Origin: Chrysochromulina tobinii
Taxonomy: Eukaryota
Assembly: GCA_001275005.1 (NCBI GenBank)
Contig: JWZX01003247.1
Location: 1-46,113 of the forward strand
DNA length: 46,113 bases
Reading direction: 5' to 3'
Shown: positions 3,532 to 45,843 of the stretch, piece by piece
Position numbering within the stretch: position 1 is the stretch's first letter
How the letters are laid out: each line of letters begins with the position of its first letter
The notes under the pieces: model-generated
Databases searched by the model: none
Told to the model about the DNA's origin: nothing
The model's input: only the letters and a program-made list of their open reading frames with translations
Position numbers and translations under genes: made by a program

Positions 3532-6075
3532 TCACGGCGCGGCAAACATCTTGCCAAACATGGCCTTGTCCCTCCGCGATTGCTCCTTCATCGCCTCCTT
3601 GAGCTCCTCGAGCTCCTTGCGCACCTCGCGGTTCTGTGGGTCCGCCTTGGCGGCAGTGAGCAGATCCGCCTTCGCGCCTTCGAAGTCCAGATTCAAGCGC
3701 TTCGCCTGCGCGCGCCGGTACAGCGCCTTGACGTTCGCCATGTCGAGCTTGAGCGCGTCGTTGCTCGCCTTCTCCGCCATAGCTCCGTCCCCAAGCTTCA
3801 GATGGCACGCGGCGATGTTGAGGAAGCACGAGAGCGTGATGGCTTTCGACTCACTGAGTTTCGTCTCGATTTCTGCGTCCGACAGCACCGCTGCCGACCT
3901 CACCGAACTCGCCTCTGAAGCCTCCGAAGCCGCCGAAGCCGACGAAGTCGCCGCCGCCGCGCCATCCGAAATGTCGACCCCGGCCTTCTCCTGCTCCCCG
4001 GCCTTCTCCTCTCTCTCCTGTTTGAAATCGGAGAATCGGGGCGCCTTGGAGTTGGAATCCGTGTACCTGCGGAGCCATCTCATGCAATCGTGAATACTCA
4101 GAGGCACCCAACGGCACTCGGCGGCACTCAGGGGCACTCAGCGACGGGTGGACGAACTTGTGCAATGCGAATCGATACTCTCCACGCGCGAAGAGCTTGT
4201 TGCCGCGGCTCTTGAAGCGCATCTGCGCAGCGAGACGCTCCTCGCCGTCCATCGACCACGTCTCCTTGGCTCTGACGAAGCTGAGCAGCTCGAGCTCGAT
4301 CACGACGGCGCTCTCCCTTGCCAAAAAAGGACCAGTCGAATCGAAGCTGGGGCTGCCATACGCCCAAGCCGCCGCCGCCGTGAGCTGCACGAGCTCGCCC
4401 GATTTCATATGGCGGACGGCGGCGTCGATGCACGGCAGGACGCCGGCGGCACCGCCCTCGCTCTGCATAAAAGTACGCGGGCGCTCGATGGGCACCTCTT
4501 CGAGGACCTCGCCGTCCGTGCGCCACGACGGCGAGCCGCCGCCCTCGCCTTGGGCGGTCGAGGCAAGGCGGCGCACCGTGTAACGCACGACGCAGATGGA
4601 CTCTTCATTCGGGGTGAGGTGATCGCCCTTCTCCGACTCCCGCAGTATCTTTTTGATCACCAGCCCATCTGTGAACGGCACCTCCTCCACCTTCGTCCAA
4701 CTTTCGAGGCGCACCTTGAGGCACATGAGAGCACCGTCGGCGCCCGCGTCGGTGCCCGCGACGGCGCCCGCACCCGCCGTCTTGGGCAAGGAGACGCGCA
4801 GCTCCGCCGTCTCATACAGCTGCATCAGCGGCAGTAACGTCTCGAGCCGTGCCGCCAGATCCGCGGGAGATGCGCCCGTCACGGCGCCCTCCTTCTCGAC
4901 CAATCTCGTGCCGATCTCGGCCACTTCCACGTTCGACGCGATCGCACCGAGCGTCACCACCAGACCCTCGGCGCTCGATGCGACCGGCGCGCTGGGCGAT
5001 CTGCGCACCTCGAGATCGAGCTTGACCTCGTACCGCGCCCTCGCCCTCTCCCACCCCTGGCCGCGCCTGAGGACCCGCTTGAGCATCGAGCCGTCCTTGG
5101 TGGCTGAGATGTCTTCGACCCCCACCCAATGCAGCAGCTCGACGGTGATGAAGAGCTCCGCGTTCGGAGGTACGCCGAGATCGGGAGCTCCCGCAGCGCC
5201 GTACCCGAGGGCGGGCGCCACCTTGAGCTCGCACACCTGATGAGGGAGGCACTCAGAGGTCATCGGTCATCAGCGTGTAGGAATGGTGCGACCGCGAGAC
5301 ACTCAGTCGCAATCAGTCGCAATCAAGAGGAGCGCGAGACCCTCAGTCGCAATCAGTCGCAATCAGCGGCAATCAAGAGGAGCGCGAGACCACACACCTC
5401 GCCAGTCGTCATGCCGTTGGCGCCCACGACGGCGCTCTGAAAGAAGGTGGGAACGGACGCGTCGCCTGCTGTGAACGTCTGCTCGAAGTCCTTGAGAAAG
5501 GGTTCACCGTCGCGGCTCAGCCGGCCGGTCCACCTGAGCGTGATCTCGGCGCGCGAGCTCGGCCGCTCCCAGCTCGTGCCCTTGACGAGCCTCCACTTGA
5601 CGAGCTGGCCGTTGTGCGACTGGGTGCGCTCGAAGAGGCGGTGCAGCGTCATCTCGTACTCGAGCACGCTCGCCGCCGGCACGCCGCGCGCCGCGTCGCC
5701 CTCGTCGCCGTAGCCCTGTGAAGGCTGCACTGTGAAGTGCGACATCTCGCCCACTTGCATCGTCTTGAGCCCGGCCTCGACACCCGCGGGCAAGCCGGTG
5801 GATCCGACCGTCAGGCGCCTCCTCGTCGCCTCTTCGAAGGGAGTCTCGCTGCCGGCCACGCGCGCCTTGTAATCGACCTCGACGTCCCACTCTTGCTGCG
5901 GATTGTCGTAGTCGGCGCCCGCGGTGAGGAGCGTCTTGGTCACCGAGTGGTCCTTGAGCACGTCAAAGGTCTTGCCGACGTCCGAACTTTCGAGATGGTG
6001 AGCCGCAAAGTTGCTGCCATCGTCGGGGTCCTCCGGGATAAATCCTCCACCGCCCATTCCATCCGCGTCGTCCAG

Positions 6076-6113
<38 letters not shown>

Positions 6114-6216
6114 TGGGCGACTGATCCGCGGCGCCCTTGCGCTCGTCCTCGTCTACCTGGGCCAGGATCGCGCCCGTGTCCACCTTGGAAAATGTGGTAA
6201 GGTTCTTGGTGCTCAT
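3532..6216 (-). CDS. Multi-FKBP-domain peptidyl-prolyl isomerase with C-terminal TPRs (FKBP62/ROF1-like), about 810 aa; exons 6216-5398, 5236-4158, 4066-3532
   Basis: FKBP motifs GLKTMQVGE..GYG..GVPAASVLEYEMTL, GYG..GVPPNAELFITVELL and AVRHMKSGE..AYG; TPR motifs KSRGNKLF, FLNIAACHLKL, NVKALYRRAQA. Two GT-AG introns join three ORFs in frame (2433 nt). Confidence 0.9.
4067..4157 (-). other. GT-AG intron (91 bp, phase 2) in the FKBP gene
   Basis: AA|GTTCG...CCGCAG|GTACACG; contains tgagtgcc repeats; restores ALHK-YTDS in the TPR region. Confidence 0.8.
5237..5397 (-). other. GT-AG intron (161 bp, phase 0) in the FKBP gene
   Basis: GAG|GTGTGTG...CCCTCATCAG|GTGTGCG; filled with tgattgcgac repeats; restores GMTTGE|VCELKV. 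Confidence 0.9.
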
Positions 6217-9198: not shown

Positions 9199-12100
9199 TC
9201 AGGACGCCGGCAGCGCAGCGGGCACGCGCACGAGCTCCCGCACGAGCTCGACGAGCTCGCGCTTGAGAAGCGGCACGAGTAGGCCCTCTCGCTCGAGGTG
9301 CATGGGCACGTTGTGATGGAACGTGTCATGCTCAACGACGACGACGGCGCGCCGCCCGCGCACACGCGCCGCCTGGGTCATGTCCTCGAGGTTGCCGCTC
9401 CCAACGTGCACTGCGACGCGGCCGACGCCGGTGCCGTCATTGCCGCTTGTGCCGGTACCGCCATTAGCGGTGCCGCCGCCGCTGGCGTGCTCTCTCGCGT
9501 GCTGCTCGAGCGCGCGGTCGATCGCCTGCGCACACGCATTCTTGGCCGCGTCCGGTACGAAAGAGCCATGCGAACGGCGGAGGTCGACGCGTGGGCCAAA
9601 AGCGAGCACACGCGCCGCCCGGTGCGCGTGCTGCAGCGCAGCGGTGGCGCCCATGGAGGAGCCGAGCATGAGCACACTCTCATACGGCGCTGCGTGCGCG
9701 TCGATGAGGGCGCCGTAGTGGGCGAGGCCCTCCCAGCCGCCGCGCGGGTCCTGCAGGTAGTACGAGTTGGACGGATCCGCCAGATAGAGCACATCGAGCG
9801 GCCCGCCCGCGGCGCGTGCAGCTGCGCACGGAACCTGCCACTGTTGCATGCCCGGCCCCTGCGCCGCGAAGGCGACGAGCAGCACGGGGGCACGATGGCC
9901 GACACACGCGGGCTCAAAGTGGTGGTCGACGAGGGCGAGGCGATCGTTCAACGTGCCTGCAAGCTGTGAAGGGGGCGTGCCGCGATTCCAGCCGAGCCCC
10001 ACGCGCGTGCCAGGCCATTCGAACGCCTCCTTCAAATCGAATTGGTTCGCACCGAGACCGAGGTTGAGAAGGGGCAGGTGGCGCAGCACACGCTCGCGGA
10101 GCTCGGCGAGGTTCGTCAACTCGTTCGCCTGCACGTAGAGGCTCTTGAGCTTCGTCAATTTGCGCAGCGACGTCGGCAGGTCGAGGAGCCGATTGTGGTG
10201 CGCCTCGAGCTTCGTCAATTGCGCGCACTCGCCCAACTCCTCCGGCAATTGACGAAGCTGGTTGCCAAACAGCCAGAGCTCGCGCAATTGACGAAGCTGG
10301 CCGATGGAGCGCGGCAGCTCCGTCAATCGATTGGCCTCAAGGCAGAGCGTCGAGACGTTGGGTAGCGCGGGCAGCAGCTCGGCGACCGACACGATACCGT
10401 TCGAGCCGAGCTGCAGCCGCTTGAGATGGCGCCCCAGGTGCGTCGTCGTGAGCTGCTCGAGCAGTTGCGTCGGCGGCCGCGTCAAAGGCGGCGTCGGCGT
10501 CAGTGTCGGCGCCTGTGGCGGCGTCTGCGTGAGCGGCGATGGCGGATCGTGCAGACGATTGAAGGAGGCCAGCAGGGCGGTCAGCGCACTAGCATGCATC
10601 GGGAGCAGCGGTAGGGAGGTTTGGTCGTTGCCTTCGAGCTCGAGCACAGCGAGATGCGGGGAGGCGAACGCGCCCGTCGTGTCGAGCTCGACACGGCGCG
10701 TTGAGCTCGACACGGCGCCATCGGATGGGAGCTCTCCTTCGTCGCCTCCCTCAGCCGCCCTCGTTCGGCGCTGCTCGTCAGTCTCGTCAGTCTCGTCAAT
10801 CTCGTCAGTCTCGTCAGTCTCGTCAGCCGCCCTCGTTCGGCGCTGTAGGCCCCAGCGCAGGTGCTTGAGCTTCGCGCAGCGCAGGACCACAGGAGGTAGG
10901 GAGGCGAAGGCGTTGTCCTGCAGGCTGAGCACGTGGAGCTGCGGAAGGTCGGCGAGCCAGCACGGGAGCTGTGAAAAGTCATTCGAGCTGAGTAGAAGCT
11001 CGCCCAGCTCGATCAAGTGGCTCAGGTCGTCGGGGAGGGCGCGTAATTGATTCTCGGACGCGTCGAGGACTCGCAGCGCACGCAATCCGCCCAGCGCCTC
11101 GGGGAGCTCGACGAGTGCACGCCGACGCACGGAGAGCGTCGTGAGGGTCGCACTATGCATGCTCCACCAGCCGCGCTCTGTGGGGAGAGGCGAGGGGAGC
11201 GCCGTAGTGGGCAGCTGGGCGCGCGCGAGGGGCTCAACGCCGGTGTGAGGCGTCCCCGCCGTCGTGGGCGCCTCGGGCACATGCCCATCCGCATCTTCGA
11301 ATGCAGTCTCGTCAATCTCGTCAGTCTCGGCCGCCCGCTGCGTCGCGCTCGACACGGCGCTCTCGGTCAGCCCATGAGGCGACCTGAGCGCCGTACCGAG
11401 CGCCGCCTGGTAGCCCGTCAGCGCCGCATCGGCACACGCGAGCGCCGTGGTGGCAGCAGACGCGTCCCCAGCCGCGGCGGCAAAGCGCGCCATCTGCATC
11501 GTCACCAGCGCCGTGTCGAGCAGCTCGCGTGTGGACATCGTACTGAGCGCCGCTTCGCGCAGTGCGTGTCTGTTTGGAAGGCCTTGCGGCACCGCCCCAC
11601 TGCTCCTAATGAGGCAGTCGACCGCTCGGAGAGTGAGAAGCCAATCGCATGCCTCCGCAGCCTCGGCCCACCGCTCCTGCAGACTCCAGACGCCGATCAA
11701 GAGCACGAGCACAGGCGCCGTGGCGGCAGCGGTGGGCAGCTGGGTAAAGGACGCGCCCGGCACAGCGCCCAAGGACGCGCCCGGTACAGCGCCCATGGCA
11801 GAGGAGGCGGGCGGCGGCGGCGCGCCTGGGGTCATGGCGAAGCATGCCGACTGCCTAATTAGGAGTGGCGTGATGCCCAAACGTGCCGCCGCCCGAAGGC
11901 ACAACGCCTCCGCTCGGGACAGCGCGCCCTGACGAAACGCTTCGGTCGCTCTGGGTAGAAGCAACGAAGGCTCCTCCTCTTCCACAGCGCCGTCGCAAGC
12001 GCCCGCATTCACAGCGCCAGCGCCGCCGCTCGTGACGTGGCCCGCATCGTCGTCGGTCCTCGGTGGTTCGTCATCTGCTCGGGACGGCGCGCGTGCCTCG

Positions 12101-15100
12101 GCTCCCGCGCCCGCGGCAGCTCCCGCGCCCGAAGCGGCGCGCTTGAGCAGCAGCAAGAGCGCCGCCGCGAGCGCCGGGACGGTCGTGTGTTCATAGATCA
12201 GGTTGAGAGGGAGTGTGAGGGATGTGCATGCATCGAGCGCCTCGCGCAATCTGGCGGCCGAGATCGACGAGAGGCCCGCGTCGAAGAGGTCGTCCTCCTC
12301 GCTCACCTGATGAGGGACGCAATCAGCATGCACTCAGAGATGCACTCAGAGATGCACTCAGAGGTCGTCCTCCTCGCTCACCTGATGGAGGACGCAATCG
12401 GCATGCACTCAGGAGTCCTCTCACCGCCTCGCCGCTCGCCTCGAGCATGGCGCCGATCACCAACTGTTGACATTCAGCGAAGCTCCAGCCCGGGGAGCGA
12501 GCGCCCACGACGGCGCCACGTCCAGATCTACCCGAGATCGGCGCGCCCGCAGAGGGGAAGGACGGCGTCGCCGCCGCCGCCGTCGACGCCGCCGTCGCCG
12601 CCGCTGCCGCCGCCGCCACTGCTGCCTTCCCCTCCGTCGCCTCCGCCTCCGCCTCCGCCTCCGCCTCCTCTCCCTCCTCTCCCACCTCCGCAGCTGCTGA
12701 GCGCTGTCGTGGGCGTCTCACAGCCGCCTTCCGAGCCTCCGCGCGCCTCGCCGCATCGAATGCATGCGCCTTCCGAGCCTCCGCGCGCCTCGCCGCCTCA
12801 TGCTCCAACGGCTGCTTCACACGCAAGTCCAGTGTGAGCATGGGCGTCCCAGTGCGCAGGCTTGGCAGTTGGAACGCTTCGGCCAGCCCGATCCGTAGCG
12901 GTTTACCGGTCGGTCCACGTGGCAGCGAGGGGAGCATCAGGAGCATCTCGGGCAGCCACCGACGCGAGAGCAGGCCGTTCGAGCCCGCGGCGCGCCGGAT
13001 CCGATGAGAGGGGTCATCAGAGCGGTCATCAGAGAGGTCATCAGAGGTATCATCAGACGTATCATCAGATCCGGGACCATTAGAGATGGAGCGTACCTGG
13101 GCGAGCGTCACCGTCCGCCCCGACTCGCATACGACCGCCACGCCCACCGCCTCGCCCAGCTCCTCGTGCGGCGCGGCGAAGGCGAGCACCTCGCGCACCC
13201 AACCGTACAGCTCGCCCGCGGGCCGTCGCGCCGTGCCGGGCGCCGTGCCGGGCGCCGTGCCGGGCGCCGTGTCGGGCGCCGTGGTGGGCGCCGTACCGAG
13301 CGGCGCGGTGGGCGGCTCGTCGGGCGCCTCGGGCCCGATGCATGCGGCGAGCAGCGCGTGCTCGACCGCGAGCGGCGAGATCTTCTCGCCCGCGCGGTTG
13401 ATGACCTGATGACGGGGGCAATCCGCAATCAGATGACCTGAGTACGTAATCAGCAATCCGCAATCATACGCAATCAGATGAGTGGGGGGGGGGGCACTCA
13501 GAGTGGCTCAGCGACCAGAGCAGCAGCAGCAGCGAGGCACTCAGAGGCAATCCGCTGATGACCTCCTTGAAGCGGCCGGTGAGATGCAGGTGGCCTTCCG
13601 AGTCGAGCCACCCCTTATCTCCTGTCCGGAGCCAGCCGCCCGGATAGAATGCTTCCAAATTTGGGTCGTATCCGAGATGAGCCCGAGGCTCGTAACCACC
13701 AAAGACGCACGCGCCGCGCACGAGGACCTCACCTTCCACTCCCGGAGCGCCTTCCAAATTAAGGAGGCCGGGGCTCCCATCGGAGCTGTACGAGCTCACG
13801 CCCACCTCGGGCCCGGCCGCGGGGCCGACGGAGGCGAGCTTGCGTCGGGTGCGCTCGCGCGGGTTGGCACAGATGGGCAGGGCTTCGGTCATCGCGTAGG
13901 TCGGGAGCACGAGCGCACCTGATGAGGCAGGCAATCAGAGGGACTCAGCGGCCATCCGACGCCATCCGACGCGAAATCCGACGCAATCAGGGGCGCACCG
14001 GGCAGCGCTTCCTCGAGCTGCTCCCCAATGGATGGAGCGAGAGCGGCGGAGCAATTGCGGATAAAGGCGAGTTGGTGAGAGGGAGGCATGCCGGTCGAGG
14101 CACGCACGCTCAGAGCGTAGCGGAGCACCTCCATGTGGATGGTCGGCACGGCGCTGTACCAGGTAGGCGCCGTCGTGGGCGCGCCCAGCAGCGCCTCCGC
14201 CGTGTCCGCTGCCGGCGCTCGGCTCGGCTGTGTCGGCCTTAGGCCAAGGCATGCAAAGAATTGGGCGGCCTCGAATCGGGGCAGGCAGAGCACCGGCGCC
14301 CCGGCCAGCGCCGTGACGAGCACATTGACCATGAGTCCGTGCAGGTGGAAGAGCGGCATCACATTGAGAGCGAGGGTGGTGCGGTCGAGTCGGAGGGTCG
14401 AGCGTACGCAGAGCGCGCCGACCCCCATGGAGGCATGGGTGAGAGGGACCACCTTGGACGGAGGGAGATCGGAGGGAGATCGGAGGACGATGAGGGAGAT
14501 CGGGCGGAGATGAGGGAGATCAGGCGGAGATCGGGCGAAGAGGGAGGTGATCAGAGGGAGATGATCAGAGGGAGGTCAGAGGGAGATTGATCAGATGAGG
14601 GGGGCACCTTTGGACGACGCGTCGTGCCACTCGTGTGCATCACGAGCGCGATCGCCTCACGCCCAGGACGACGCCCCGCAGCCGCAATCGATCCGGAGGC
14701 GGTGCTGGCAGAGGCGCGAACAGCACGCTCGACGGCCGCGGAGGTTGCACACGTCAAGGTGAAGGCTCCGCATAGTCGCAAGTCCGGATGAAGGACCAGT
14801 AACTGCAGCCCCAGCCGCGGCACTGCCACCCTGGCTGCCGCCGAGTGACGGCCCGCTGGCACGATCAGCGCAGCGGCTGGTAGATCCTGAGGGCATCGCG
14901 GAGCGATCAGAAGCGGTCGGAGAGGAGCATCATCAGACGCAATCAGACGCAATCAGAGGGCAGGTGCTGAGGGTGCCGACGTAATCTGAAGCCATCCGAC
15001 GCAATCTGAGTCAATCTCCCACCTCGAGCTCAAAGAGGGTTTCGGCGTCGGAGAGGTCGGGGTTGAGAGGCGCGAGGGGTAGCAGTGAGCTGAGCGCGAG

Positions 15101-16570
15101 AAAGCACGCGGCCAGCTCGGGGGAGGATGGCAATGAAGTCGCCACGCGCTCGTGCGGCAGGAGGTACGCGCTGTGTCTGGCACGCGACGATGCGATGTCG
15201 TCGTCGTCGTCGTCACCCTCCTCACCCGCCCGACACGGCGCCTCCCCATCCCCTCCCCTAAACCACTCGCCCCCTCCAAGCAATTGTTCACCGAGCCGAC
15301 GCGAGAGTTCACGCAGCGCACGGAAGCTCAAGGGCGCACGCGCATCTCCGCACGCCGAGGCGGGACAAAAGGCAGAGCCCTCATCCGACGGCATCAGATC
15401 GAGAAGACGACTAAAGGCGAACTTCTCGGCGGCGGCGGCGGCGCTCAGAGGCGCTGTAGTGGGCGCTGTGGTGGGCGCTGTGGTGGGCGCTGTGGTGGGC
15501 GCTGTGGCGGCGGCGGCGGCGGCGCTCAGAGGCGCTGGCGGCGGCGGCGGCGGCGGCGGCTGCGGCTGTGGCGGCGGCGGCGCTCCTGACTGCAGCGCCG
15601 CTGCCGTCGGCGGCGGCGTCACGACGTCGCTGCCCACCTTGACGCCGCCGCCCACCTCCCAATGGTCTCCCGGGCAGAGCACGCGTCGGATGGTCAATGA
15701 GACTCGTCGACCACGCACGAGACGGCGCCGCGCCGTCTCGGGCGCAACATGCTCGGGGAGCGCCGTCTCGGGCGCCATCTCGGCCACCGCCTCGGGCGCC
15801 ACCTCGTCCGTCGCCTCGGCCAACGCGCCGTCGGCACCCCGACCGCCGAGCCAGAGCGACGCGCTCATGTCATCCTCGGTGGCTCTCGAGACGCTATGGA
15901 GCGCGTGCGCGTACGCGTCGCCCTCGAAGACGAGCAGTCCACGCCGCGGGAGGAGCAGCGAAGCCAACGGCCGTCGGACGATCACGTCCGAGGACGTGTC
16001 CTCTTCGAGGAACTCAAAGGCCGTGTGGGATCCGAGGCTCAGGATGGCCACGCGTGCCGCGTACAGGGGACCGTCCTTGTGCGCGTCGATGCCCTGCCCC
16101 GGCTGGTACTCGTTGAGGAGCACGTGATTGGGCGGCGAGTCCTCGGGGAAGACGCCCGCGCGCACGAGCTGCTCGCACACGCTCTGCACCCACGCCGGCA
16201 GCGGCTCGTGCACCATCGGCATGGCTGGCTGGCCGCCAAACATTTGCAGCCGTCGGCCGCGAAGCGTCGTCCAGCCGTCAGGCGGCGCACTATCGGCACA
16301 GCGAAGCAACTCTGCTTCCTCCTCGCTGCTGACCCACTCGCGCACGTGCGCGACGCCACCGATGCCACAGCGCACCGTGTGCGCTCGAGGGTCAAAGAGC
16401 TGCCGGTCTGGCCGTGCTGGCAGCAGGTAGTGGTGGAGTGGTGCGGCAGCGCCGCTTTGGTGGACTGGCGGCGATACAGGTGCTTCTGCGGCGGCCGGTT
16501 TCGCGCCAGTTGGGGCGGCTGCGGCGCGCGCCTTGGCCTTCTCGGCCTTTAGGAGCGCCGCGAAGTCCAT
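9199..16570 (-). CDS. NRPS-like multidomain protein of about 2200-2240 aa: ALKBH6-like 2OG-Fe(II) oxygenase, AAE3/Pcs60-like adenylation domain, phosphopantetheine carrier domain, helical region, LRRs, alpha/beta-hydrolase; exons 16570-15023, 14886-14608, 14452-13999, 13918-13563, 13405-12425, 12306-9199
   Basis: Oxygenase: NHVLLNEY..HKDGPLY..H..RVSLTIRRV. Adenylation: HTSGTTRRPK, MPLFHLHGL, TWYSAVPTIH, YAMTEA, RTGD, INRAGEKISP, PTGK. Carrier: DLFDAGLSSISA..LIYEHTTV. LRR: LxxLxLxxNxLxxLP. Hydrolase: LGSSMGA. Five GT-AG introns join all pieces in frame (6726 nt). Confidence 0.8.
12307..12424 (-). other. GT-AG intron (118 bp, phase 0) with an internal second AG|GT junction at 12382/12381
   Basis: GCG|GTGAGAGG...CCCTCATCAG|GTGAGCGAGG; restores the carrier domain EASGEA|VSEEDDLFDAGLSS. 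Confidence 0.85.
13406..13562 (-). other. GT-AG intron (157 bp, phase 0)
   Basis: GAG|GTCATCAG...CGTCATCAG|GTCATCAA; restores TGRFKE|VINRAGEKISP. Confidence 0.92.
13919..13998 (-). other. GT-AG intron (80 bp, phase 1)
   Basis: G|GTGCGCCC...GCCTCATCAG|GTGCGCTC; restores EEALPG-ALVLPTYAMTEA. Confidence 0.9.
14453..14607 (-). other. GT-AG intron (155 bp, phase 0) made of gatctccctc repeats
   Basis: CGTCCAAAG|GTGCCC...CGTCCAAG|GTGGTC; restores TSGTTRRPK|VVPLTH. Confidence 0.9.
14887..15022 (-). other. GT-AG intron (136 bp, phase 0)
   Basis: GAG|GTGGG...GCCCTCAG|GATCTA; gattgcgtc repeats; restores LFELE|DLPAAALIV of the adenylation domain. Confidence 0.85.
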
Positions 16571-17994: not shown

Positions 17995-20900
17995 TCAACC
18001 GACAATGAGCGGCGGCAGCGGCGCGATGGGCCGCGGCACCTGCGGCAAGCCGGCGATGAACGAGCAGGGATCGCTCACTTGCGTGGCCGCTGGATCATTC
18101 ATCGTGCAGAGAGGGGACGACGCGACGCTAGGTGCCGCGCCCTTGACCCCGCCGCCGCCACCGCCCTTAAAGCGTCCGGATCGGCGACCGACGGTAGCCG
18201 TTGCCGCCGTTGCCGCCGTTGCCGCCGTTGCCGCCGTTGCCGTTGCCGCCGTGTCCGCCGCCGTCTCCGTCGCCACCGGCGCCGTCCCGGGCGCAATCGC
18301 CACCACGAGCCGTTTCGCCGTCTGCGGGCTGAGGAAGCTCTCTCGCAGCCATCGCACGAGCAGCTGCTGTGACGTGGCGCGCATAGCCTCCGCCTCCTCC
18401 TCGGCGCGTCGAAAGGCGTAGCTCTGCCCGTCGATCTCGGACCAGTAGCGCATGGCCTCGTCCTCGATGCTCTTGTCATCGAGCAGCCGATTATCAATCG
18501 CCGCCTGCTGGTTGGACCGGTACTCCGCGGCGGGCATCTTGGCCAGCGTGGCCACGTACCTGATGAGGGAGCTCATCAGAGCTCATGAGTGGTCATCACA
18601 GGCAATCATCGAAGGCAATCAGTCGTACTCCGCATGGGGTAGGCTTACCCTTCAAGGAACCGATACACACGCGCCTCGATGTCGGCGGGTGCGTGCGTGG
18701 CCGACACGACGGAGATCAAAAAGCCGAGGCAACCGTTGGTATGGCGCACTTCGCCACTCACGCTGTAGCCGAGCTGCTGCTTCGTGCGCAGCGTATCGAA
18801 GAGGGGTGTCCACATGAGATGCTCGAGCAAAGAGAGCTTGGCAGCGAGCGCTCTCGAGTCGGGGCCCAGCTGCCAGTACAGATCGAGGGCGCAGTTCTGG
18901 TCCTCCGGGTTGCGGTTGGGTGCGCGTCGCACGAGCAGCCCGCCCGCAGGCAGCGCTGCACAGCCCTCCCATCTGGGGCTGGGCGTTGGGGGGGGCTCGC
19001 CGAGTGCGCGCCCGACGAGGTCGAACAGGGAGCGCACCTCAGAGCGAGCGAGGTTGCCGCCAGCGTACAGGGTGATGAAGGCGCCCCCGCCCTCGCCAAG
19101 CAAATCCCCGCCGCCCTCGCCCTTCGACGCGCCCTTCGCCCCGCCGAGCTGAGCGCCGACAAATGCGGCGAGCGATTCCGGCGTCACCTCGCCCGCACTG
19201 AGGACCGCAAGCCGGTCGGCCGCAGACACGTGCGTCGGGTCGAGGCAGCGCAGCCGCTCGTTGTACGCCAGCTCCGACGGAGCGAAGCCCGCGTTTCGCA
19301 GCGCGAGCTGATAGTCGTTGAGGACGCGTGCGAGTGTGGGCGCATCGCACGGGCGGCTCGCCACTGCATAGAGCTCGGTGCACACGCGCTCGAGCAGATG
19401 GCCAAGCTTGTGGGAGAAGCCGTCCACCTGCAGTTGCCATCCGAGCTCCGACGGAGAGAGATCGTAAGCGAGCCCCGCAACGGTCGCTGCATACGCGTCG
19501 GTGTTCATGCGCTCGAGGGTCACTTTGGCGGCGACCTCACGCATCACTCGCATGCGCGCCCGAGTCCTCGCCATCTCGGAGAGCTCGGAGGCGGAGAGAG
19601 TGCCCGTGCTGCCGGTGCTGCCGGTGCGGCTGACCGTAGAGGGGCGTGCGGTGTTGATGGAGACGCACACGATCGCCTTTGGCGTCGCAAAGGTCGTATC
19701 GGTCTTGTGGAACGCGAGGCCACGTGTCGACGAGTGCACTAGCTCTGGAGGTGTACGAGCCGGCCGAGCCGCCGCCGCCGCCACCGATGCGACAGCCAGG
19801 GCCGCACCCCGCGTCACCTCAGCGGCCGGCATTGGTCGTTGGGTCTCGCCACCATGGCGCAGTGTAAAGTCGGTCGCGATGTATTCGTTGCGCGGCGGCA
19901 GCTCAAAGGGTGTGGAGAGCGGCTCCGAGGGCCGTCCCTCATACGCTTCCCACCAGCGAGCCAGCTGTGCCGAGTTCACAGGCTTCACTGTGAACTCGGT
20001 CCCGAACCAAGGCTCAAGCTGCCACGTGTCACTCTCGCCCTCGGAGGGCGCACCGACCAGCGCCGATGCCTGCTCTTCGGCGACCCCGCCCTCGGCCTTG
20101 AGGCCCTCGCCTGAATCGCCCTCCGCCTTGTACGAGACGGTGACCACGAGCCTGTCGGGCGTGAGGCCACCGAGGAGCTCTCGCAGCCGCGTCGGCTCCC
20201 AATTGGGGCTGTACAGAGCCTCGGCGGAGAGGGTCTCATCGGGTGGCAGCCGCCGAAGCAGCGAGATTGCGAGCCGGCGCACCGCGTCGATCTCCCTCTC
20301 TTGCTCCGCGTACGCGAAGCGCATCTGCGCAATGTCGCGCAGCTCGTCATACACTCCTTGTAGCCGTTCGGTCGGCTCGCGTGACAGGTGGCCGACGGCG
20401 CCGAGGACGAGGTCGAGCACACGGTCGACGCGATCGAGCCCACGGGAAGTGAGCTCCACCTCGAGATCGAAGAGCGCGGCATTGCTCGTGTGCATCTCCT
20501 CATCGACCCCCGCCGCCAGCCCCGTCGCCAACCCTTCCAGCTTGAGCGCCTCCAGGGCCGAGCCTTTGCCCTCGTGCCCAAGCAGATGGCCGACCAGCAC
20601 CTCCGGCTTGGTGCCGTACGCGTTGAGCAAACTCGGAACGAACCAGTTGAGTTTGAGGGTACGCCCCTCGCGAAGTGGGACTGAGCGCACCCAGAGCGGT
20701 GGCTTCCAGCCGGCTACCGCCGCCGCCGCCGCCGCCGCACCCCCGCTCGCATCGCCTCCTCCGCGCTCGCCACCTTCGCGCTCGCCACCTTCGCGCTCGC
20801 GTGCACCGCGCTCGCCAGCTCCGTCGTCGCCCAATCCTCCCAATGGAAGCGGCGCGCGCGCAAACGACGGGCGGGCTACCGGCTGCGAGGGTAGCCGCGC

Positions 20901-23131: not shown

Positions 23132-25444
23132 ATGTCGACGGAGGCGGCCGCGATCGAGAACATCGCCGTGTACGCTCGCATCCGCTCGAGCTCCCAGCCC
23201 GCGGAGGCGAGCAGCGACGTGAGCGTCGTCGACGGCCAGCCGGACAAGGTACGTGCGAAGGACTTGCAATTCAACCTCGATCACGCGTTCGGCAGTGACG
23301 CCAAGCAGGCGGAAGTGTTCAACGTGATTGGCGCGCCGCTCGTGCAGCGCATCACCGACGGATATAATGCGTGCATTATTGCCTATGGCCAGACTGGCAG
23401 CGGCAAGACGTACACGATGCTTGGTCCTGAGAACGCGAAGCTCGACGGCTCGGGTGGCGAGACGGCCGACCTGGGCATCGTCCCACGCGCATGCCTGCAG
23501 CTCTTCAAGATGCTGCCCGCGGGCTACACGGTGACGACAAGCTACATGGAGGTCTACAATGACAACGTCAACGACCTCCTCACGGCCGACTACACGAACA
23601 AGGAATACCTGCCGCTGCGCGAGACGGTGACGGGCCACGTCGAGCCTGACGGCATCACGCGGCGGCAGGTCAAGAGCGCCTCGGACGTGATGAAGGCGAT
23701 CGCGCTCGGCGATAGCCGGCGCGTCGTCGCCGCCATGGCCATGAATCCTCGCTCGTCGCGCGGCCATGGCCTGATCGCCATCGAGACGTACACCGACAAG
23801 GGCATGTCGCACGGCCGGCTCTGCCTCGTCGACCTCGCCGGTGAGATTTTGCCCTGTGATTGCCACATGATGGAGACATGATGGCCAAATGATTGCCATC
23901 TGATCGTCATATGATTTTCATCCGATTGCCAAATGATTGCCAAAATGATTGCGACGTGATTGCGACATGGTTGCCATAGGATTGCGCTATAGGATTGCCC
24001 TCCGATGGACCTCAGGTATGGAGAGCTCCAAAAAGTCCGGCGCGGTCGACGTCTCGGGCCCGTCCGCGGCCAAAGCTCGCCAAGAGGAGGCGAAGCGCAT
24101 CAACATGAGCCTTCTGGCCCTGTCGAATGTCGTCAATGCTCTCGCGTCCAAGGGCGCGATGAAGGTGCCCTTCCGAGACTCGAAGCTCACACGGCTGCTG
24201 CAGAGCTCGCTAGCGGGCAACTGTAAGGCGGCCTTCGTGGTCATGCTGCGCGGCGAGAAGCAGAATGTCGAGGAGGCGACCCTCACCCTCCGCTTTGCTC
24301 AGGCGAGAGTGCCACCCACACTGAGTGCCACACTGAGTGCCACACTGACTACCGCTGGTTGCCAGATTGATTGCCAGATTCGAGTGACATCGATTGCGGA
24401 CCCTCCGTTTGGCGATCTGATGGCGATCTCTCGACCTCCGTGATTGCGGACCCTCCGGATTTCGCAGCGTGCCAAAGCGGTGGCCGCGACCGTGATGAGG
24501 AATGAAGACTCCGTCAAGGCGAGGAGTACAGGGGCGGCCTTCCTCGCCGCCCAGAAGAAGCTCGAGGAAGAGCTGCAGGCGCAGCGCGCCGCGCTGAGCG
24601 CGTACCAGGAGAAGCTCGCCAGCGCTGAAGGCGTGAAGGAGGCTATGAAGGCGAAGGTCGACACGCTGCTCTCGGAGATGCAGTCTCTGCAGCGTGATGC
24701 GGACGACGCGAAGCGGCAGAGGCGTCAAGAGGCGCTACAGGACGAGACGGTGGCTATGTCGCAGGCGGCGCTTGAGAGGCGTGTGAAGGCGCTCGAGCAG
24801 CGCAACCGGTGCGTGGGGGGTGGTCCTTGATTGTGATCTGATCGCGATCTGATTGAGGTCTGATTGAGGCCTGATGGAGCTCTGAGTGCATATGATTATT
24901 GCCTTCATCGGCGCACAGAGAGCTCGAGGAGGAGAATCGTCTGCTTCGTCAACGCGACATCATGCACCGGCTCATCGAGCTTGATCAGCTGGAGGCCGCG
25001 AGCGGCGACGGTGTGAAAGGCGGGCTCGGTGTGAACAAGGAGCAGCTCGCCACCTTCAACACGCCGTCGATGTCCGTGACGGGTGCCTTTGCAGTGCAGC
25101 TTGACCGCCAGATAGAAGAGAGCGAGGTCCGTCGCGAGGTGCGCCGAAAAGCGAGCGCTCAGCGATTGAGCAGTGGGCAAGCAACCGTTCCACAGAGGAG
25201 ATGGTCTCTGCTGCGGATGACCTTTCTATCCAAAAGGGCCAAGGGAAGAAGCGTGGCCCGGGGGAGCGGATTCGCAGCTGCGCGTGGCTCGTTGCGGCGC
25301 GTGAACCCGGCGCCCAAGACGACAAAGAAGGTGCTCTCGCGTGAGGACCAGGCGACCATCAAGATCCAGGCTGTCTGGCGCGGCAAGATGGTGCGCGATG
25401 AGCTCGCGTTCGGGTATGGCGACGAGCACGCGTACGGGTACTGA
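23132..25444 (+). CDS. Divergent N-terminal-motor kinesin with coiled coil and C-terminal IQ motif, about 620 aa; exons 23132-23840, 24016-24302, 24468-24808, 24919-25444
   Basis: IAVYARIR, AYGQTGSGKTYTM, YMEVYND, NPRSSRGH, LVDLAG, VPFRDSKLTRLLQSSLAGN, TLRFAQRAK; tail IQAVWRGKMVR. Three introns join the frames (1863 nt). Confidence 0.92.
23841..24015 (+). other. GT-AG intron (175 bp, phase 1) in the kinesin gene
   Basis: G|GTGAG...CCTCAG|GTATG; many tgattgcc units. Confidence 0.88.
24303..24467 (+). other. GC-AG intron (165 bp, phase 0) in the kinesin gene
   Basis: CAG|GCGAG...TCGCAG|CGT; restores the conserved TLRFAQ|RAK; contains ctgagtgccaca and gattgcggaccctccg repeats. Confidence 0.85.
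24809..24918 (+). other. GT-AG intron (110 bp, phase 2) in the kinesin gene
   Basis: CG|GTGCG...GCACAG|AGAG; ctgatt repeats; restores the coiled coil EQRNR-ELEEEN. Confidence 0.85.
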
Positions 25445-40771: not shown

Positions 40772-43700
40772 TCACGCATGGTGGACGGCGGCCCCGCCCT
40801 GCTGTATCAGCAGCATGCACCATTCAGTGTGGAATGTGGAGGGAAGGTGCGAGACGAGTTCGGCCGCCATCGGCACGAGCGCCGGCGGCTTGGTGCTCAT
40901 GAAGAGCGTGTGTAGCGCTCGCAAGCCGGACAGCGCCGCAGCGCGCTGCTCGGCCGTCGACGAGCTTCGATGGGCGCCTAGCCGGACGGCGTCGAGATGG
41001 GCGCGTGCCTCGCGCTTGAATTGGGCATACAGCACGTCATCGCCGAGCCGCGCCTTGATTTGCATCATTAAGTGCTTGCCTCGCTCATGCGCGCCGTCGT
41101 GGGCCACACGCTCCCGCGCACCGCTACCAGCACCGCCGCCGCCACCGCCCTCGGGTTTTGGTGCCCTCGCGTCGTCGTCGTCGCCGGCGTCGGCGGTGCC
41201 GCACCTCTCCGCCGTCGCCGTCCTTGGGCGCTTTGACTCCGGGGGATGGGCGGCCGCGGAGGCTGCTGCGGTTGCGGGCCGTTTGGGAGCAACGGCAGAG
41301 GCGGCGGCCGAGGCGGCGGCCGAGGCATGCTCGGCAGGAGCAGAGCGATCGACAGGGCCTGGCTGCTTCGGCGTCGGGTGTGACGAACCTCGGTCTGCTG
41401 TTGACGAACCTCGGTCTGCTGTTGACGAACCTCGGTCTGATGTTGACGAACCTCGGTCTGCTGTTGACGAACCTCGGACGCCGTTCGAAGTTGCCCCTAC
41501 TCGCGCCGCTGATGCCGCTTGCAGCTGCCGAGAGCCACCAGTGAAAGCGGGCGAGGCACCGCTTCCGCTGGTGAGAGCAGCGCCGGCGCCGGCGCCGCTC
41601 GCACCACCGGCGCTCGCCGCCCCACCTGCCGCGGCCCCACCTGCCGCCGCCCCACCTGCCGCCGCCCCACCTGCCGCCGCCCCCGCTCTTGCCGCGCCCG
41701 ATCCCGTCGATGGCAGGGCGCTCAGCGGGGCGCGCGGCACAAAGCGAGCGCCTGGCGTGGTCGTGACTGGCGGCGGCGGCGCCGACGTCGCAGGTCCACC
41801 GCCGGCATGGCCCATCGCGCCGCCGGTGTGCACTCGCGAGGCGGCGGCGGCGGCGACAATTGCGGGCATAGACGCGGCCGCGGGGCGAACTTGAGGCACC
41901 GTGGGGTGAGGCGCGGAGCCGTACTGAGCACTTGCATGCAGGGCCGCGGGGCGAACTTGAGGCACCGTGGGCGGAGGTGCGGGCGGATAGCCAGGGCCAG
42001 ACCCGGGCCGGACAGATCTGGCCGGACCTGCCGCTAGACCCGTCGGCAGTCCTTGGCTGTGCGCCGCCGCCGCCGACGACGACGACTGCGTAGGTGCACC
42101 GTTGACGAACCCCTTCGTGCCTCCCGGCGCCAGCGCTGGTGGACCGGTAGGCCCTAAGAGTGCAGATGAGCCCCCTCTCGCCGCCGCCGCCGCCACCGCC
42201 GCTGCTGCTGCGTGCGACCCGGGGGCGGCTCGCTTGGTGGGCAGCGGCGCCGTAGCGGAGGCTGCCACCTGCAGCGCCATTAGCACCTGGCGCACGTGCG
42301 GCAGGTGCTTTGGGACGAAGCGCACGAATCTCGCGCGGAGCTCCTCTCGCCCCGGCATGCCGAAGAGAGATCGCATCTGGTGCTGCATCTCGTGGGGCAC
42401 CACCTCCATCGGAAGGCTGGCGCTGCCGTGAGCACCATGGTTGGCGCTGCCGTGGGCGCCATCGGACGGTTTCGGGAGCGCGAGAAGGGCACGTACGAGA
42501 GCCATGAAGCGAGCATACTCCTCGGCCGTGAGCAGGGTGCGCGCGAGGTTGAGCAGGTCTACAGCCGTCACTGGCGCAGCCGAGGAGCCAGCCGAAGTGC
42601 TCGCAGCTGCCGCCGCCGCTGCCTCCGCCGGCCTCGCAAGAAGCTGATGGCCACCACCGCCCCCCCCCGCCCCGCCGCCCACACGAATGCCACCACGTAC
42701 CGAGGTTTCCCCGGGGTGTAGGCGCCAGTCCTCACGTGGCGGTGCCCACGCCGCCCTTCGCTGCGCTGTCGTGGAGGCGGCAGCGGCGGCACTGCCGGCA
42801 GCGCCGGCGGCGGCGGCGGCGGCGAAGGAAGGGTCGGGTTCTTTCGTGTCACCGCCAGCCACGTCATCGATCATCGCTTGAGCGCCGCTGGGCTCGTCGG
42901 TGTAACGACCCTCGCCGCCACTGCTGACCGCAGCTGCCCAGGCTGCCTCGACGACAGCACCGCTCCTGCCAAGGCCGCCTCCGCCGAGCCCGACACGACC
43001 GGCGCCGCCACCCTCCTCCGCGTCCGCAGCCGCAGCGGCAGCAGCGGCGGCGGCTGAGGTGTACCGAGCACCCTTGCTACTACTACTGGCGAGTGCAGCG
43101 TGCAGCGAGGGCGTCGGTGCGGGTGGCGGCAAAGCGGGCAACGGCCGAGGTCCGAGCGGAGCGCATGGGGTGGCCGCATGGACGCTCTCGCCTTCTTCGA
43201 GCTCCACCGTCCCAACGTCCCCAGACGCGGTGGAGGCGAGCTCCGAGCGTAACTTGAAGAAGCGCTGCAAGGCAGGGTAGCCCTGCCCGAACGAGCTGAA
43301 CTGCTTCACGTGCGGACGCAGCCACAACGAGAGGCCGTCGACCCATGCGCTCTTTGCAAAACGAGACTCGCAAAGCATCACCGCGCCAAAGTCGTTGCGG
43401 TGTCGAATGACACGGCCGACCGCCTGGTTGACCGCACGCATCGCCTGTTGATGATACCATGCTTCCCCGGACAGCATGCCAGAGGCGCCCGAGCCGCCCA
43501 GCCCCGAGCTGCGTGCCGCGCCCGCGCGCCGCTGGTCGAGATACTGCCGCTTGAGCTCGACCTTGGCATCGAACGCAGGCGGAAGCGGCAGACCAGTGAT
43601 CACGACGCCACGGCACGCGCTGTCGGCAAAGTCGACGCCTTCGGACAGCTTGCCGCGGCACACAGCGAGCAGCATCGCGCCGCCCGTGCCACGGAAGAGC

Positions 43701-45843
43701 GAGGATTGGACGGCATCCTGGAAGGTCTGAACGGCCGCCGCGCATTCGGACGCGTCTCGCGGCTCGACGACGAGCGTCTTGAGCTTACGCAATCGCTCGA
43801 GCACCGAAGGGCCGCCGTCGGGTGATGCCAACGCCCACGCGGCGTGCGCTGACTGCATGGCCGAGTAGGAGGGGAAGAAGACGAGGACGCCCTGCGGCAC
43901 GAGGCGCGCGAAGTTGATGATCGCATTGCCCAGGTCGCGCTTCGCATCCTCGCTCTCGCGCTGAGCGTACGACGAGGTGAGCTCATGCCCCGAGGGCCCC
44001 TTGGTGAAGGTGCCGATGAGCAACTGCGCCTGCGGATCGATGACGTGCGGGTTCTCGAGCTTGTACTCAAAGGGCAAGCCCAGCTCATCAGCGAATGAAC
44101 CCAGGGGAGAGAGCGTACCCGAGGTAAGCAGCACGGAGCGCACGCCCGCCGCCTTGAGCGCGCGCATCGCCGCACCCGAATGGAAGCACCAGTAGCCGAG
44201 CACACGTGGCTTGGCGTCGAGCGTGCCCGCGGCCCGTGCCTTGCCCCCGGCGCCGCCCCCCTTGCCGCCCTCGCGCTCTTTCAACTCGTGGATGCAAAGC
44301 CGGTACTCTGCGGGCGAGCGCTCGGGGTCGAACGCAATCTTGAATGCGTCCGCGAGCTTCTGCAGATTGAAGGAGCTCCCCGCGGTCACGCCGAAGCGTG
44401 CTGCCTCACCCAGTGTGGTGACGCACCTGCATCCAAGGCGCGATCCGCAGCGAATCAGTGGTCAGCAAAGCCCGTCAGACGCGCTGGGCGAGCAGAGTGT
44501 CTCCACAGCCATCCACGCACCTCTCACAAAGTTCGACCAGAGGCGTGACCGTGACACCGTCGATGCCTGCCGCGCCGAGCATTCGACCGAGCTCCTCACC
44601 GGCCGCCACGTACCGAGCCTCCGCGCGCGTCTGCTGCAGCGGCACCTTGGCGACGCTCTCGTCCACCGCCAGCAGCAGCTGACGCAGCCGGACGAGCTCA
44701 TCAGGGCTCACGCCGCGCACGCCGCCGTTGGCATTCTCGAGACCGTCCACCTCCGGGTCGACCGCCTCGGAGTCATCGGCGCCGCGGTTCCGTGCGCCCG
44801 CGAGGAGCCGGTCGACCTCGCGCACCGCTCCCGCGAGCTCAAGCGAGCTCAGGTCGAACGAGGCGGCGTCGGCGCACACGCGCTCGATGTTATGCGCTTC
44901 GTCAAAGATGAGCACGTCGCTCGCCAGGTTGATGTTGAGCGCGCGCCGCACCTTCGAATCCAGCAGCAGGAAGGTGGCAATCAAAGGGACTCAGTGGCAG
45001 TCCACCAGGGCACTCAACGGAATTCAACGGCACTCAGCTGGAGCGCGCTGCACCTTCGGATCCAGCAGGTAGTTGTATGGGAGGAAGAGCACGTCCGAGC
45101 ACACCTGTGGGGAGTGTGGGGCGTCGTGATGAGCACTTGCATGCAGGGAAGAGGATGAGGAAGAGCACTTCCGAGCACACCTGCAGCTCCCGCGCGAGGT
45201 AAAATGGGCAGAGCTCGTCGCGCTTGGAGGAGCTCACGAAGTCCTCGATGTCGGGCACGGCGCGCACGCTCTCGTCGGCCGCCGCCTGCGGGTGCGCCAG
45301 CGAGCCGTGCTTGCGCTTCGCCTCCTGCAGCTTGCGATAGTAGACGCAAGACTGGGCTGCTGTCAGTGCCTGGCACGCGGCAGACTGCGACGGGCCAGTG
45401 AGCTTTGATACGTCCTGGTGGCAGCAGAGCTGCTCGCGTGAGCCGAGCATGCAGACGAGCGGCCGGTGCACCGTGCGACGCAGCTCGCGCACCACCTGCT
45501 GCAGCTGCGAGTGTGTGCGCGAAGCGTAGATGATCCTCGGCACGCGCCCGTCGCCGCCGCCGCCACCGCCGCCCGTCCCGAGGGTGGCCGACAAACCCGC
45601 GGCCCACGCTGCGCCTGCCGCGACGTTCGCCGACGCCGCACGCTGCCGCTGGATCTGCGCGCGCCGCCACCCAAGGGCCGCGCACAGCAAGCAGAGCGTC
45701 TTGCCAGTGCCAGTTGGGCTCTCAAGCAGTGCGTTGGAGCCGTGCTCGAGCGCGAGCACGACCTTTTCCATGTACACGAGCTGGACCGGGTAGGCCTCGA
45801 AGGGGAAGTCGACCGCGCATCCCGCGATGTCATACAATGGCAT
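40772..45843 (-). CDS. RTEL1: Regulator of telomere elongation helicase 1 (Fe-S DEAH helicase), about 1599 aa; exons 45843-45181, 45104-45054, 44951-44521, 44426-40772
   Basis: ESPTGTGKT, IIYASRTHSQL, Fe-S cysteines (LCC, AC, SC, LCPFY), PYNYLLD, DEAHN, LTSGTLSP, RGKLSEGVDF, QAVGRVIRHRNDFG, LSLWLRP; harmonin-homology-like helical segments in the tail favour RTEL1 over FANCJ. Spliced length 4800 nt. Confidence 0.9.
41381..41477. repeat. Coding 21-bp tandem repeat, about 4.6 copies (GSSTADR) in the RTEL1 tail
   Basis: tgacgaacctcggtctgctgt repeated, one variant unit. Confidence 0.95.
44427..44520 (-). other. GT-AG intron (94 bp, phase 2) in RTEL1
   Basis: AG|GTGCGTGG...ATGCAG|GTGCGTCA; restores LCER-CVTTL. 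Confidence 0.85.
44952..45053 (-). other. GT-AG intron (102 bp, phase 0) in RTEL1
   Basis: CCGAAG|GTGCAG...TTCGAAG|GTGCGG; contains an in-frame stop; restores LLDPK|VRRAL. Confidence 0.9.
45105..45180 (-). other. GT-AG intron (76 bp, phase 0) in RTEL1
   Basis: CAG|GTGTGCTCGGAAG...CCCCACAG|GTGTGCTCGGACG; restores RELQ|VCSDVLFLPYNY. Confidence 0.92.

What the first reader, a model, noticed from the sequence alone, without database searches (positions are those of the whole stretch)
4067..45180. Window-wide intron-generating process: introns sit between duplicated exon junctions of variable length
Seen: in 11 of 14 reconstructed introns the downstream exon itself begins with GT. The donor and acceptor contexts are often direct repeats: AG|GTGTG (5237-5397), TCGTCCAA(A)G|GTG (14453-14607), G|GTGCGC (13919-13998), AG|GTCATCA (13406-13562), AG|GTGCGT (44427-44520), and 26-27 bp in two RTEL1 introns. 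Established: introner elements (for example in Micromonas and Aureococcus) are DNA-transposon-derived, have near-identical copies and short, family-specific target-site duplications, and co-opt the duplication as a splice site. Short AG|GT matches alone are also expected from protosplice-site bias. Inference: here the duplication length varies from about 3 to 27 bp, I see no terminal inverted repeats, and the interiors are non-identical mosaics of short repeats. That fits staggered-break repair or a target-primed, template-slipping polymerase that creates introns de novo rather than a classical introner.
Basis: partly seen in the sequence, partly recalled or inferred. Interest (0 to 1): 0.9.

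Follow-up and report, generated by a model that had tools for sequence, protein, structure and literature searches.

The report
Introns born with long target duplications
In the alga Chrysochromulina tobinii, young introns consist of a short DNA cassette shared across the genome plus a 10-55-base copy of the neighbouring exon, and one such intron is present in some natural alleles and absent in others, which likely reflects an ongoing way of making introns that published introner surveys scored as absent from this genome.

Summary
The window is a C. tobinii contig. In detail: 11 of 15 rebuilt introns precede an exonic GT. Junction repeats beat shuffled pairs (2 of 200,000 permutations), and the 27- and 26-nt RTEL1 repeats are real. 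In 134 related loci, 57 of 117 acceptors have an upstream copy of the exon start (null 3 of 1,491). Copies are 12-55 nt, and a mirror form copies the upstream exon end. RTEL1 intron 1 is polymorphic: 15 of 15 listed members of one ORF cluster lack it and are diverse, while 10 intron-bearing alleles are identical in exon 1. That is the signature of a recent gain. The 25-nt core also sits, with a long duplication, in non-spliceable in-frame insertions, including a missed one at 41900-41965. Best reading: intron parts are copied into staggered target sites, then local slippage scrambles them; the enzyme is inferred, not found. The scan noted this before on another piece of this genome (e1-2577349). 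A new variant of introner-like gain.

The parts
4067..4157 (-). FKBP/TPR gene intron 2, GT-AG, 91 nt; junction repeat only 2 nt; degenerate filler
   Evidence: open spliced frame; sequence
5237..5397 (-). FKBP intron 1, 161 nt; 7-nt junction repeat; ends in acceptor cassette 1
   Evidence: RNA pieces start at 5393 in two runs (table 8)
12307..12424 (-). AMP-enzyme gene intron 6, 118 nt; holds an inner copy of its own acceptor plus about 22 nt of the downstream exon (64-nt repeat, spacing 75)
13001..13096 (-). AMP intron 5, 96 nt, in frame and stop-free; acceptor reads GG in this assembly, AG in run X7
   Evidence: table 3 (position 13002)
13406..13562 (-). AMP intron 4, 157 nt; 9-nt junction repeat; inner copy of acceptor plus exon start
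   Evidence: RNA piece starts at 13556
13919..13998 (-). AMP intron 3, 80 nt; 7-nt junction repeat; cassette 1
   Evidence: RNA piece ends at 13993 with 3 letters left (weak)
14453..14607 (-). AMP intron 2, 155 nt; its end resembles the upstream exon end (one indel)
   Evidence: RNA piece ends at 14449
14887..15022 (-). AMP intron 1, 136 nt; 3-nt repeat; filler
18560..18648 (-). Insulinase (M16) gene intron, 89 nt; 4-nt repeat; cassette 1
23841..24015 (+). Kinesin intron 1, 175 nt; 3-nt repeat
   Evidence: RNA piece ends at 23839; 27 of 27 longer homologous ORFs run through the site
24303..24467 (+). Kinesin intron 2, GC-AG, 165 nt; 3-nt repeat
   Evidence: RNA piece starts at 24465 in X15, retained in X16
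24809..24918 (+). Kinesin intron 3, 110 nt; 1-nt repeat
   Evidence: RNA pieces end at 24807 in two runs
41900..41965 (-).
   Evidence: frame stays open
44427..44520 (-). RTEL1 intron 3, 94 nt; 8-nt junction repeat
   Evidence: homologue alignment
44952..45053 (-). RTEL1 intron 2, 102 nt; both splice sites come from a 26-nt duplication (15 nt of upstream exon end, 11 nt of downstream exon start)
   Evidence: shared by all close alleles that reach it
45105..45180 (-). RTEL1 intron 1, 76 nt; starts with a 24-nt copy of the next exon, ends in cassette family 2; polymorphic presence/absence

Best explanation
These spliceosomal introns consist of short cassettes shared across the genome plus a 10-55-base duplicate of the adjacent exon, and they likely arise when a host polymerase repairing a staggered break copies part of an existing intron into the gap. 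Shown: the duplication, the shared cassettes, two mirror forms (cassette carries branch point and acceptor while the duplicate supplies GT/GC; or cassette carries donor and branch point while the duplicate supplies AG), and an empty allele at RTEL1 intron 1. Inferred: (1) offset nicks 10-55 nt apart leave overhangs whose fill-in makes the duplication; (2) one end anneals by 2-6-nt microhomology to another intron, DNA or RNA, more often one nearby on the same strand, and copies about 25-60 nt; (3) selection keeps exonic insertions only if they splice in register or keep the frame; (4) the long direct repeat then drives slippage and unequal exchange, giving stacked units, AG|GT inner sites and microsatellite-like filler, until the repeat decays to the 1-9 nt seen in most introns. 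No transposase would be needed.
For: Copies of the exon start: 57 of 117 cassette-1 acceptors vs 3 of 1,491 shuffled; 27 of 43 family-2 acceptors vs 1 of 1,500. Mirror form: 32 of 103 donors vs 1 of 1,500 (some are inner tandem copies). Lengths form a continuum, 12-55 nt, median 23, in 77 sites. Recent gain: 15 of 15 listed intron-less ORFs differ from the window's exon 1 by 0-4 residues, while 10 intron-bearing ORFs differ by none; one allele shows a 13-codon copy directly before the cassette (P0236). Insertion does not need splice sites: 26 of 77 duplicated cores lack in-register GY..AG, and 15 of these 26 (12 of 18 after hand removal of 8, p = 0.004) keep the frame. Non-local template: 17 of 77 units follow intron-like sequence unlike their own filler and 38 sit at an exon-like boundary; only 11 are whole local duplications. 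Microhomology of 3 nt or more at the variable end: 17 of 44 testable sites vs 20.5% in simulated blunt joins, p = 0.004. Nearby same-strand introns share more filler: 0.040 vs 0.026; within 4 kb, same strand 0.038 vs opposite strand 0.021.
Against: The 25-nt core and the 54-nt cassette have rather fixed ends (family-2 core starts within -3 to +6 nt of the copy end in 15 of 27; 7 of 10 family-3 copies are exactly 54 nt). That suits a defined mobile element better than random templating. The microhomology and proximity effects are modest, and the pairs are not independent. Only 53 of 348 filler clusters and 2 of 15 window introns have a long in-register duplication, so decay is assumed for the rest. 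The empty allele is seen only as protein. No enzyme, break or intermediate was observed.
Confidence: 0.45

Rival explanations
1. The cassettes are very short non-autonomous retroposons (SINE-like, or spliced intron RNA) inserted by target-primed reverse transcription with a borrowed non-LTR reverse transcriptase/endonuclease. The long variable duplication is the usual product of offset first and second nicks.
For: Defined cassette ends and near-identical copies. Variable long duplications and microhomology at the truncated end are typical of LINE-1 insertions (recalled, no call). Filler clusters lie on the coding strand in 163 of 199 cases. Filler words are nearly confined to introns: 44 in 1,805 intron nt vs 6 scattered elsewhere in the window. 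Non-LTR-derived introners make up about 5% of classified cases (PMC12130899, passage).
Against: The mirror forms would need templates of both polarities. No poly(A) or other uniform tail. No Rfam family above threshold in 6 cassette-rich loci. No RT motif among 1,532 ORFs of 150 aa or more in the fetched loci, though these cover only about 1% of the genome. The orientation of bare cores is mixed or unclear.
Confidence: 0.3
2. The intron positions are old. Local tandem duplication across a splice site, followed by exact loss of the original intron, renews intron sequence in place and leaves a copy of the exon at the new border; shared cassettes spread by gene conversion.
For: Local duplication across acceptors and donors is directly visible (12307-12424, 13406-13562; 11 of 77 units; several inner copies). 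One relative at 63% identity has an interruption at the RTEL1 intron 1 position and one (70%) at or near intron 2.
Against: RTEL1 intron 1 is absent from diverse close alleles and from 17 of 18 more distant relatives. 14 of those 18 are interrupted at scattered positions within about 35 codons, most of them other than the window's, as expected from repeated independent gains. Bare cores with duplications occur in open exonic frames, where no intron existed.
Confidence: 0.1
3. A classical DNA-transposon introner with a short fixed target duplication (such as the 4-nt, TIR-less families in marine Chrysochromulina) made the introns, and later slippage lengthened some duplications and scrambled the interiors.
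For: Such families are published for the genus: 4-bp TSD, no TIR, about 70 nt, carrying the donor, like family 3 here in layout. Many junction repeats in the window are 3-9 nt.
Against: The youngest-looking cases have the longest, perfect copies (21 of 47 donor-side copies have no mismatch). The polymorphic RTEL1 intron carries 24-39 nt of exon copy. There is no peak at one short length and no TIR.
Confidence: 0.12

Closest known systems
Introners of marine Chrysochromulina sp. Tara MAGs (Gozashti et al. 2022; bioRxiv 10.1101/2022.06.06.494994, PMC9860276)
   Same: Same genus; about 60-90-nt introns; no TIRs; one splice site carried, the other co-opted from a target duplication; strongly genic.
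   Different: The published TSD is 4 bp; here it is 10-55 nt and variable, on either side. Copies are not end-to-end alike because a third to a half of each intron is locus-specific. C. tobinii was in the 2022 input list and is scored with 0 introner families in the 2025 survey (PMC12130899, file 7).
Introner-like elements of Symbiodinium and Polarella glacialis (bioRxiv 10.1101/2020.10.14.339549)
   Same: Carry the acceptor and recruit the donor from the TSD, or the reverse, or recruit both.
   Different: The classes described in the passages read have fixed TSDs of 3-8 nt.
Daphnia pulex new introns from staggered double-strand-break repair (PMC4202315)
   Same: Polymorphic recent gains; a direct repeat shared by intron and adjacent exon; internal repeats in young introns.
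   Different: The repeats are 4-12 bp; the passages read describe no genome-wide shared cassettes supplying branch point and splice site.
Intron gain by tandem genomic duplication of AGGT-containing exon segments (review PMC3443670)
   Same: RTEL1 intron 2 takes both splice sites from a duplicated AG|GT segment.
   Different: Here foreign cassette or filler sequence lies between the copies.
Sister stwintrons of Hypoxylaceae (PMC8469720)
   Same: Related introns proposed to spread through break repair using intron RNA.
   Different: Those have terminal inverted repeats and internal symmetry; the passages read mention no long target duplications.

Membership tests
Introner (TE-derived intron family) | Many introns at unrelated loci share near-identical sequence | tested here: met
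   Met for parts, not whole introns: 54-nt cassette 50-54 of 54 identical in 7 copies in 5 loci; 113 cores; cassette 1 in 134 loci
Introner (TE-derived intron family) | Similarity extends end to end across the intron | tested here: not met
   10-55 nt of each young intron is a copy of the local exon; the longest exact shared 3' end between single units of different loci is 9-41 nt
Introner (TE-derived intron family) | Recent gain shown by empty orthologous sites | tested here: met
   RTEL1 intron 1 absent in 15 of 15 listed close ORFs and 17 of 18 distant ones; protein-level evidence only
Introner (TE-derived intron family) | Splice site co-opted from a target-site duplication | tested here: met
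DNA-transposon (MITE-type) introner | Fixed short family-specific TSD | tested here: not met
   continuum of 10-55 nt
DNA-transposon (MITE-type) introner | Terminal inverted repeats | tested here: not met
   best inverted match 4-7 nt in 15 window introns; only a small internal hairpin in cassette 1
Non-LTR retroposon / SINE | Variable-length TSD | tested here: met
   the LINE-1 range of about 7-20 nt is recalled
Non-LTR retroposon / SINE | tRNA/7SL/5S-derived head and a uniform 3' tail | tested here: not met
   no Rfam match at gathering level in 6 loci; no poly(A) in the sequences
Non-LTR retroposon / SINE | Partner autonomous element with RT and endonuclease in the genome | not testable with these tools
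   no whole genome held; motif scan of about 1% of the genome was empty
Break-repair (NHEJ / Pol theta) intron gain | Direct repeat from a staggered break, templated filler, junction microhomology | tested here: inconclusive
   repeat met; microhomology modestly enriched (17 of 44 vs 20.5%); template source not identified; needs genetics

The most novel reading that the evidence does not exclude
C. tobinii has a self-propagating intron-parts system with no transposase: a 25-nt branch-point core and two splice-site cassettes are copied by one target-primed reaction into 10-55-nt staggered cuts, in either direction. The reaction builds new introns, stacks second introns onto existing junctions and leaves in-frame peptide insertions. 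This would be a route of mass intron gain that similarity-based introner searches miss, and scattered intron positions in other haptophytes suggest it may be widespread.
Probability: 0.35. Interest if true: 0.9.

Novelty: new variant of a known kind. Interest (0 to 1): 0.72.

Why it matters
The source of most newly gained spliceosomal introns is an open question; a review read here says that thousands of gains fit no known mechanism (PMC3443670, passage). Here a cultured alga with a public genome and wild alleles shows likely ongoing gain with an unusually informative footprint: long duplications that date each event, empty alleles and mirror architectures. It suggests why a survey that looks for similar whole introns could score this genome as having no introners. 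It also makes the break-repair versus retroposition question testable by resequencing, mutation accumulation or targeted nicks.

Tried and rejected
No whole genome was held and the loci could not be extended to their records, so there is no genome-wide census and no search for an autonomous element. Cassette 1 had 0 hits in viral contigs and 5 single hits in prokaryotic genomes, which I left unexamined as likely chance. Strain pairs among the loci (7 pairs viewed) share their cassette introns and differ in array length; both members were found through the motif, so this says nothing about presence/absence. The open-frame test after removal is weak: 47 of 53 open after removal and 14 of 53 unspliced, but random joins are open in 1,719 of 2,000. 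A sense-only orientation of bare cores was not supported: neighbouring intron words were on the same strand for 8, opposite for 7, tied for 3. Mismatches between copy and exon showed no third-position bias (4, 8, 8 by codon position). The exon-1 protein tree was unresolved among close alleles, so I used difference counts. Rfam gave nothing above threshold; the RT motif scan was empty. The kinesin read-through count is ascertained, because only long ORFs were searched. A Helitron origin was considered and rejected because Helitrons make no target duplication (PMC12130899 passage).
Full report
Source. Clusters of window ORFs contain Chrysochromulina tobinii proteins KOO22830.1 and KOO22821.1 on a 46,113-nt contig, and C. 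parva members. The window is therefore a C. tobinii contig. The intron-bearing genes are an FKBP, a 2OG-Fe(II)/AMP-binding/PP-binding/LRR protein, an M16 peptidase, a kinesin and an RTEL1-like helicase. None of the 15 exon or ORF translations scanned with Pfam hit a transposase or RT family.

Observation. I rebuilt 15 introns. Eleven precede an exonic GT. Exact junction repeats average 5.5 nt against 3.7 for shuffled pairs; 2 of 200,000 permutations reach the observed sum, and 55 of 200,000 do so without the two long RTEL1 cases. The RTEL1 repeats are 27 nt (96%) and 26 nt (92%). Six introns have repeats of 3 nt or less. There are no TIRs. RNA contig pieces from three runs stop at the predicted edges of six introns; the joints were not displayed, and one contig retains kinesin intron 2. 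RTEL1 junctions rest on homologue alignment alone, which is gap-free at all three.

Wider sample. A scan with a 19-nt acceptor motif that omits the following GT returned 134 distinct metagenome loci, from 3 of 64 parts of the collection. That they come from the C. tobinii/parva complex is inferred: GC is similar, records of different origin overlap at 93-100% identity, and one contig length (76,594) equals that listed for window proteins. Of 251 motif hits I dropped 104 with filler in the next 80 nt and 30 that were duplicates or had short flanks. Of the 117 left, 87 are followed by GT and 19 by GC, and 57 have an upstream copy of the exon start scoring 10 or more, against 3 of 1,491 shuffled pairs. 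With a relaxed motif, 79 of 219 score 12 or more. After removing two tandem arrays, the 77 copies are 12-55 nt long, median 23, and 63 of 77 units are 110 nt or shorter.

Three shared cassettes. Family 1 is a 20-nt branch-point plus acceptor cassette preceded by CTGAY-type tandem filler; it forms a small hairpin, and a branch-point-like A lies 17 nt from the end in 139 of 219 acceptors. Family 2 is a 24-26-nt core followed by a pyrimidine run and CACAG; 27 of 43 terminal cases have a 10-45-nt exon-start copy, against 1 of 1,500. RTEL1 intron 1 belongs to it. Family 3 is a 54-nt donor-carrying cassette that ends in the same core (example: L014, minus strand, 9411-9464). Seven of 10 copies have that exact length and are 50-54 of 54 identical, and the AG often comes from a copy of the upstream exon end. 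That mirror form is general: 32 of 103 filler-adjacent donors against 1 of 1,500, some of them inner tandem copies. In a census of 348 filler clusters, 53 have an in-register duplication scoring 12 or more (null 1 of 1,164): 34 downstream-type, 10 upstream-type, 9 both. So long duplications mark a minority, which I read as the young fraction.

Insertion without splice sites. Of 113 cores, 77 have a flanking duplication (null 35 of 761). Of these, 51 have GY..AG in register and 26 do not. Fifteen of the 26 are multiples of three. After removing by hand 7 that look like offset introns and 1 tandem twin, 12 of 18 are (p = 0.004), and 10 of those 12 lie in open frames of at least 630 nt. One is in this window, in the last RTEL1 exon: a 25-nt core between 41-nt copies, 66 nt in all. 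This indicates that the insertion comes first and selection sorts the outcomes (inferred).

Recent gain. The 269-aa ORF that reads into RTEL1 intron 1 is itself on record from JGI, Logan and ENA, so these gene calls ignore introns and ORFs report the DNA state. A sister cluster of 18 ORFs, 15 of them listed, reads straight through the intron 1 site and then into intron 2, on contigs up to 31,766 nt. These intron-less alleles differ from the window's exon 1 by 0-4 residues, whereas 10 intron-bearing alleles differ by none. That is the pattern of a young derived allele. One intron-bearing allele shows a 13-codon exon copy directly before the cassette (P0236), so the duplication was about 39 nt. 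Eight of the 15 keep the intron 2 copy identical to the exon at the codon where the window differs. Among 33 near-length hits, 3 are close alleles, 9 end before the junction, 3 are distant (44-47%) and 18 are at 57-81% identity. Of the 18, one is interrupted at the intron 1 position, one at or near intron 2, and 14 in all break off at scattered places within about 35 codons. Ten longer homologues aligned, eight of them from ENA or Logan, also run through all three sites, as do 27 of 27 kinesin homologues at two sites; both sets are ascertained for long ORFs. Limits: all this is protein-level, and precise loss between long repeats could also create empty alleles, though it would not explain their greater diversity.

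Local turnover. Eleven of 77 units are whole local duplications and 11 share only the cassette with the sequence before them; 17 follow unlike sequence and 38 sit at an exon-like boundary. Several junctions carry an upstream-type unit stacked on a downstream-type unit. The window shows inner acceptor-plus-exon copies at 12307-12424 and 13406-13562. Inner AG|GT sites could be spliced in two steps like recursive splice sites (recalled concept, untested), which would make such duplications harmless mainly before GT/GC exons. Filler array length differs between strains.

Mechanism. Shown: long variable duplication, shared cassettes, mirror forms, a polymorphic site, local amplification. Modest signals: microhomology of at least 3 nt at the variable end in 17 of 44 testable sites against 20.5% simulated, and more filler sharing between nearby same-strand introns. 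Inferred: a staggered break is filled in and captures part of another intron. Tandem duplications from breaks with complementary overhangs are reported in PMC8355091 (listing and start of abstract only). I put host repair copying at 0.45, a borrowed non-LTR RT at 0.30, a decayed classical introner at 0.12 and renewal at old positions at 0.10. The fixed ends of the 25- and 54-nt cassettes are the best argument for the retroposon rival.

Literature. Gozashti et al. 2022 (bioRxiv passages; PMC9860276 supplement rows, file cut when stored) report TIR-less introners with a 4-bp TSD in marine Chrysochromulina MAGs. Their 2025 survey lists C. tobinii with 0 families (PMC12130899 passages and file 7; files 13 and 14 not searched). 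Dinoflagellate classes have 3-8-nt TSDs (passages) and Daphnia gains 4-12-bp repeats (passages). The C. tobinii genome paper mentions introns once, as about one per gene (passages). Ten searches found no description of these cassettes or of 10-55-nt duplications; subscription papers, and consensus files I could not see, may hold one. I saw it after my own counts; it agrees but is not independent proof.

Verdict. Real, non-random and recent. It works like an introner system but fails two defining tests of DNA-transposon introners (fixed short TSD, TIRs) and the end-to-end similarity test. New variant of a known kind; interest 0.72.

Noticed in passing
window 41900-41965 (-): Family-2 core with a 41-nt duplication, in frame in the last RTEL1 exon, without a usable acceptor: a predicted 22-codon protein insertion.
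   Followed up: partly
window 13001-13096 (-): In-frame, stop-free 96-nt intron whose acceptor reads GG in this assembly and AG in run X7: either an assembly error or an allele turning into exon.
   Followed up: partly
window 9199-16570 (-): The joined frame gives one 2,209-aa protein: 2OG-Fe(II) oxygenase, AMP-binding, PP-binding and LRR domains. It may be a real fusion or two genes; not checked with RNA.
   Followed up: no
window 24303-24467 (+): GC-AG intron; spliced edges in one RNA run, retained in another.
   Followed up: partly
window 2923-3004, 10770-10823, 41383-41476: Short tandem repeats unrelated to the intron filler, the first intergenic and the other two inside ORFs.
   Followed up: no
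P0303, P0307-P0311, P0313-P0316, P0318, P0321, P0324: RTEL1 ORFs of relatives break off at many different positions within about 35 codons; P0303's tail is a tandem peptide repeat that may translate similar filler. Suggests frequent independent gains in relatives.
   Followed up: partly
L048 (-, near 1061), L070 (-, near 4216), L095, L135 (positions counted on the strand shown): Stacked junctions: a unit ending in a copy of the upstream exon is directly followed by a unit starting with a copy of the downstream exon.
   Followed up: partly
window 431-1906 (+), L043, L060: Members of an LRR gene family at 74-84% DNA identity; the window copy is intronless.
   Followed up: no
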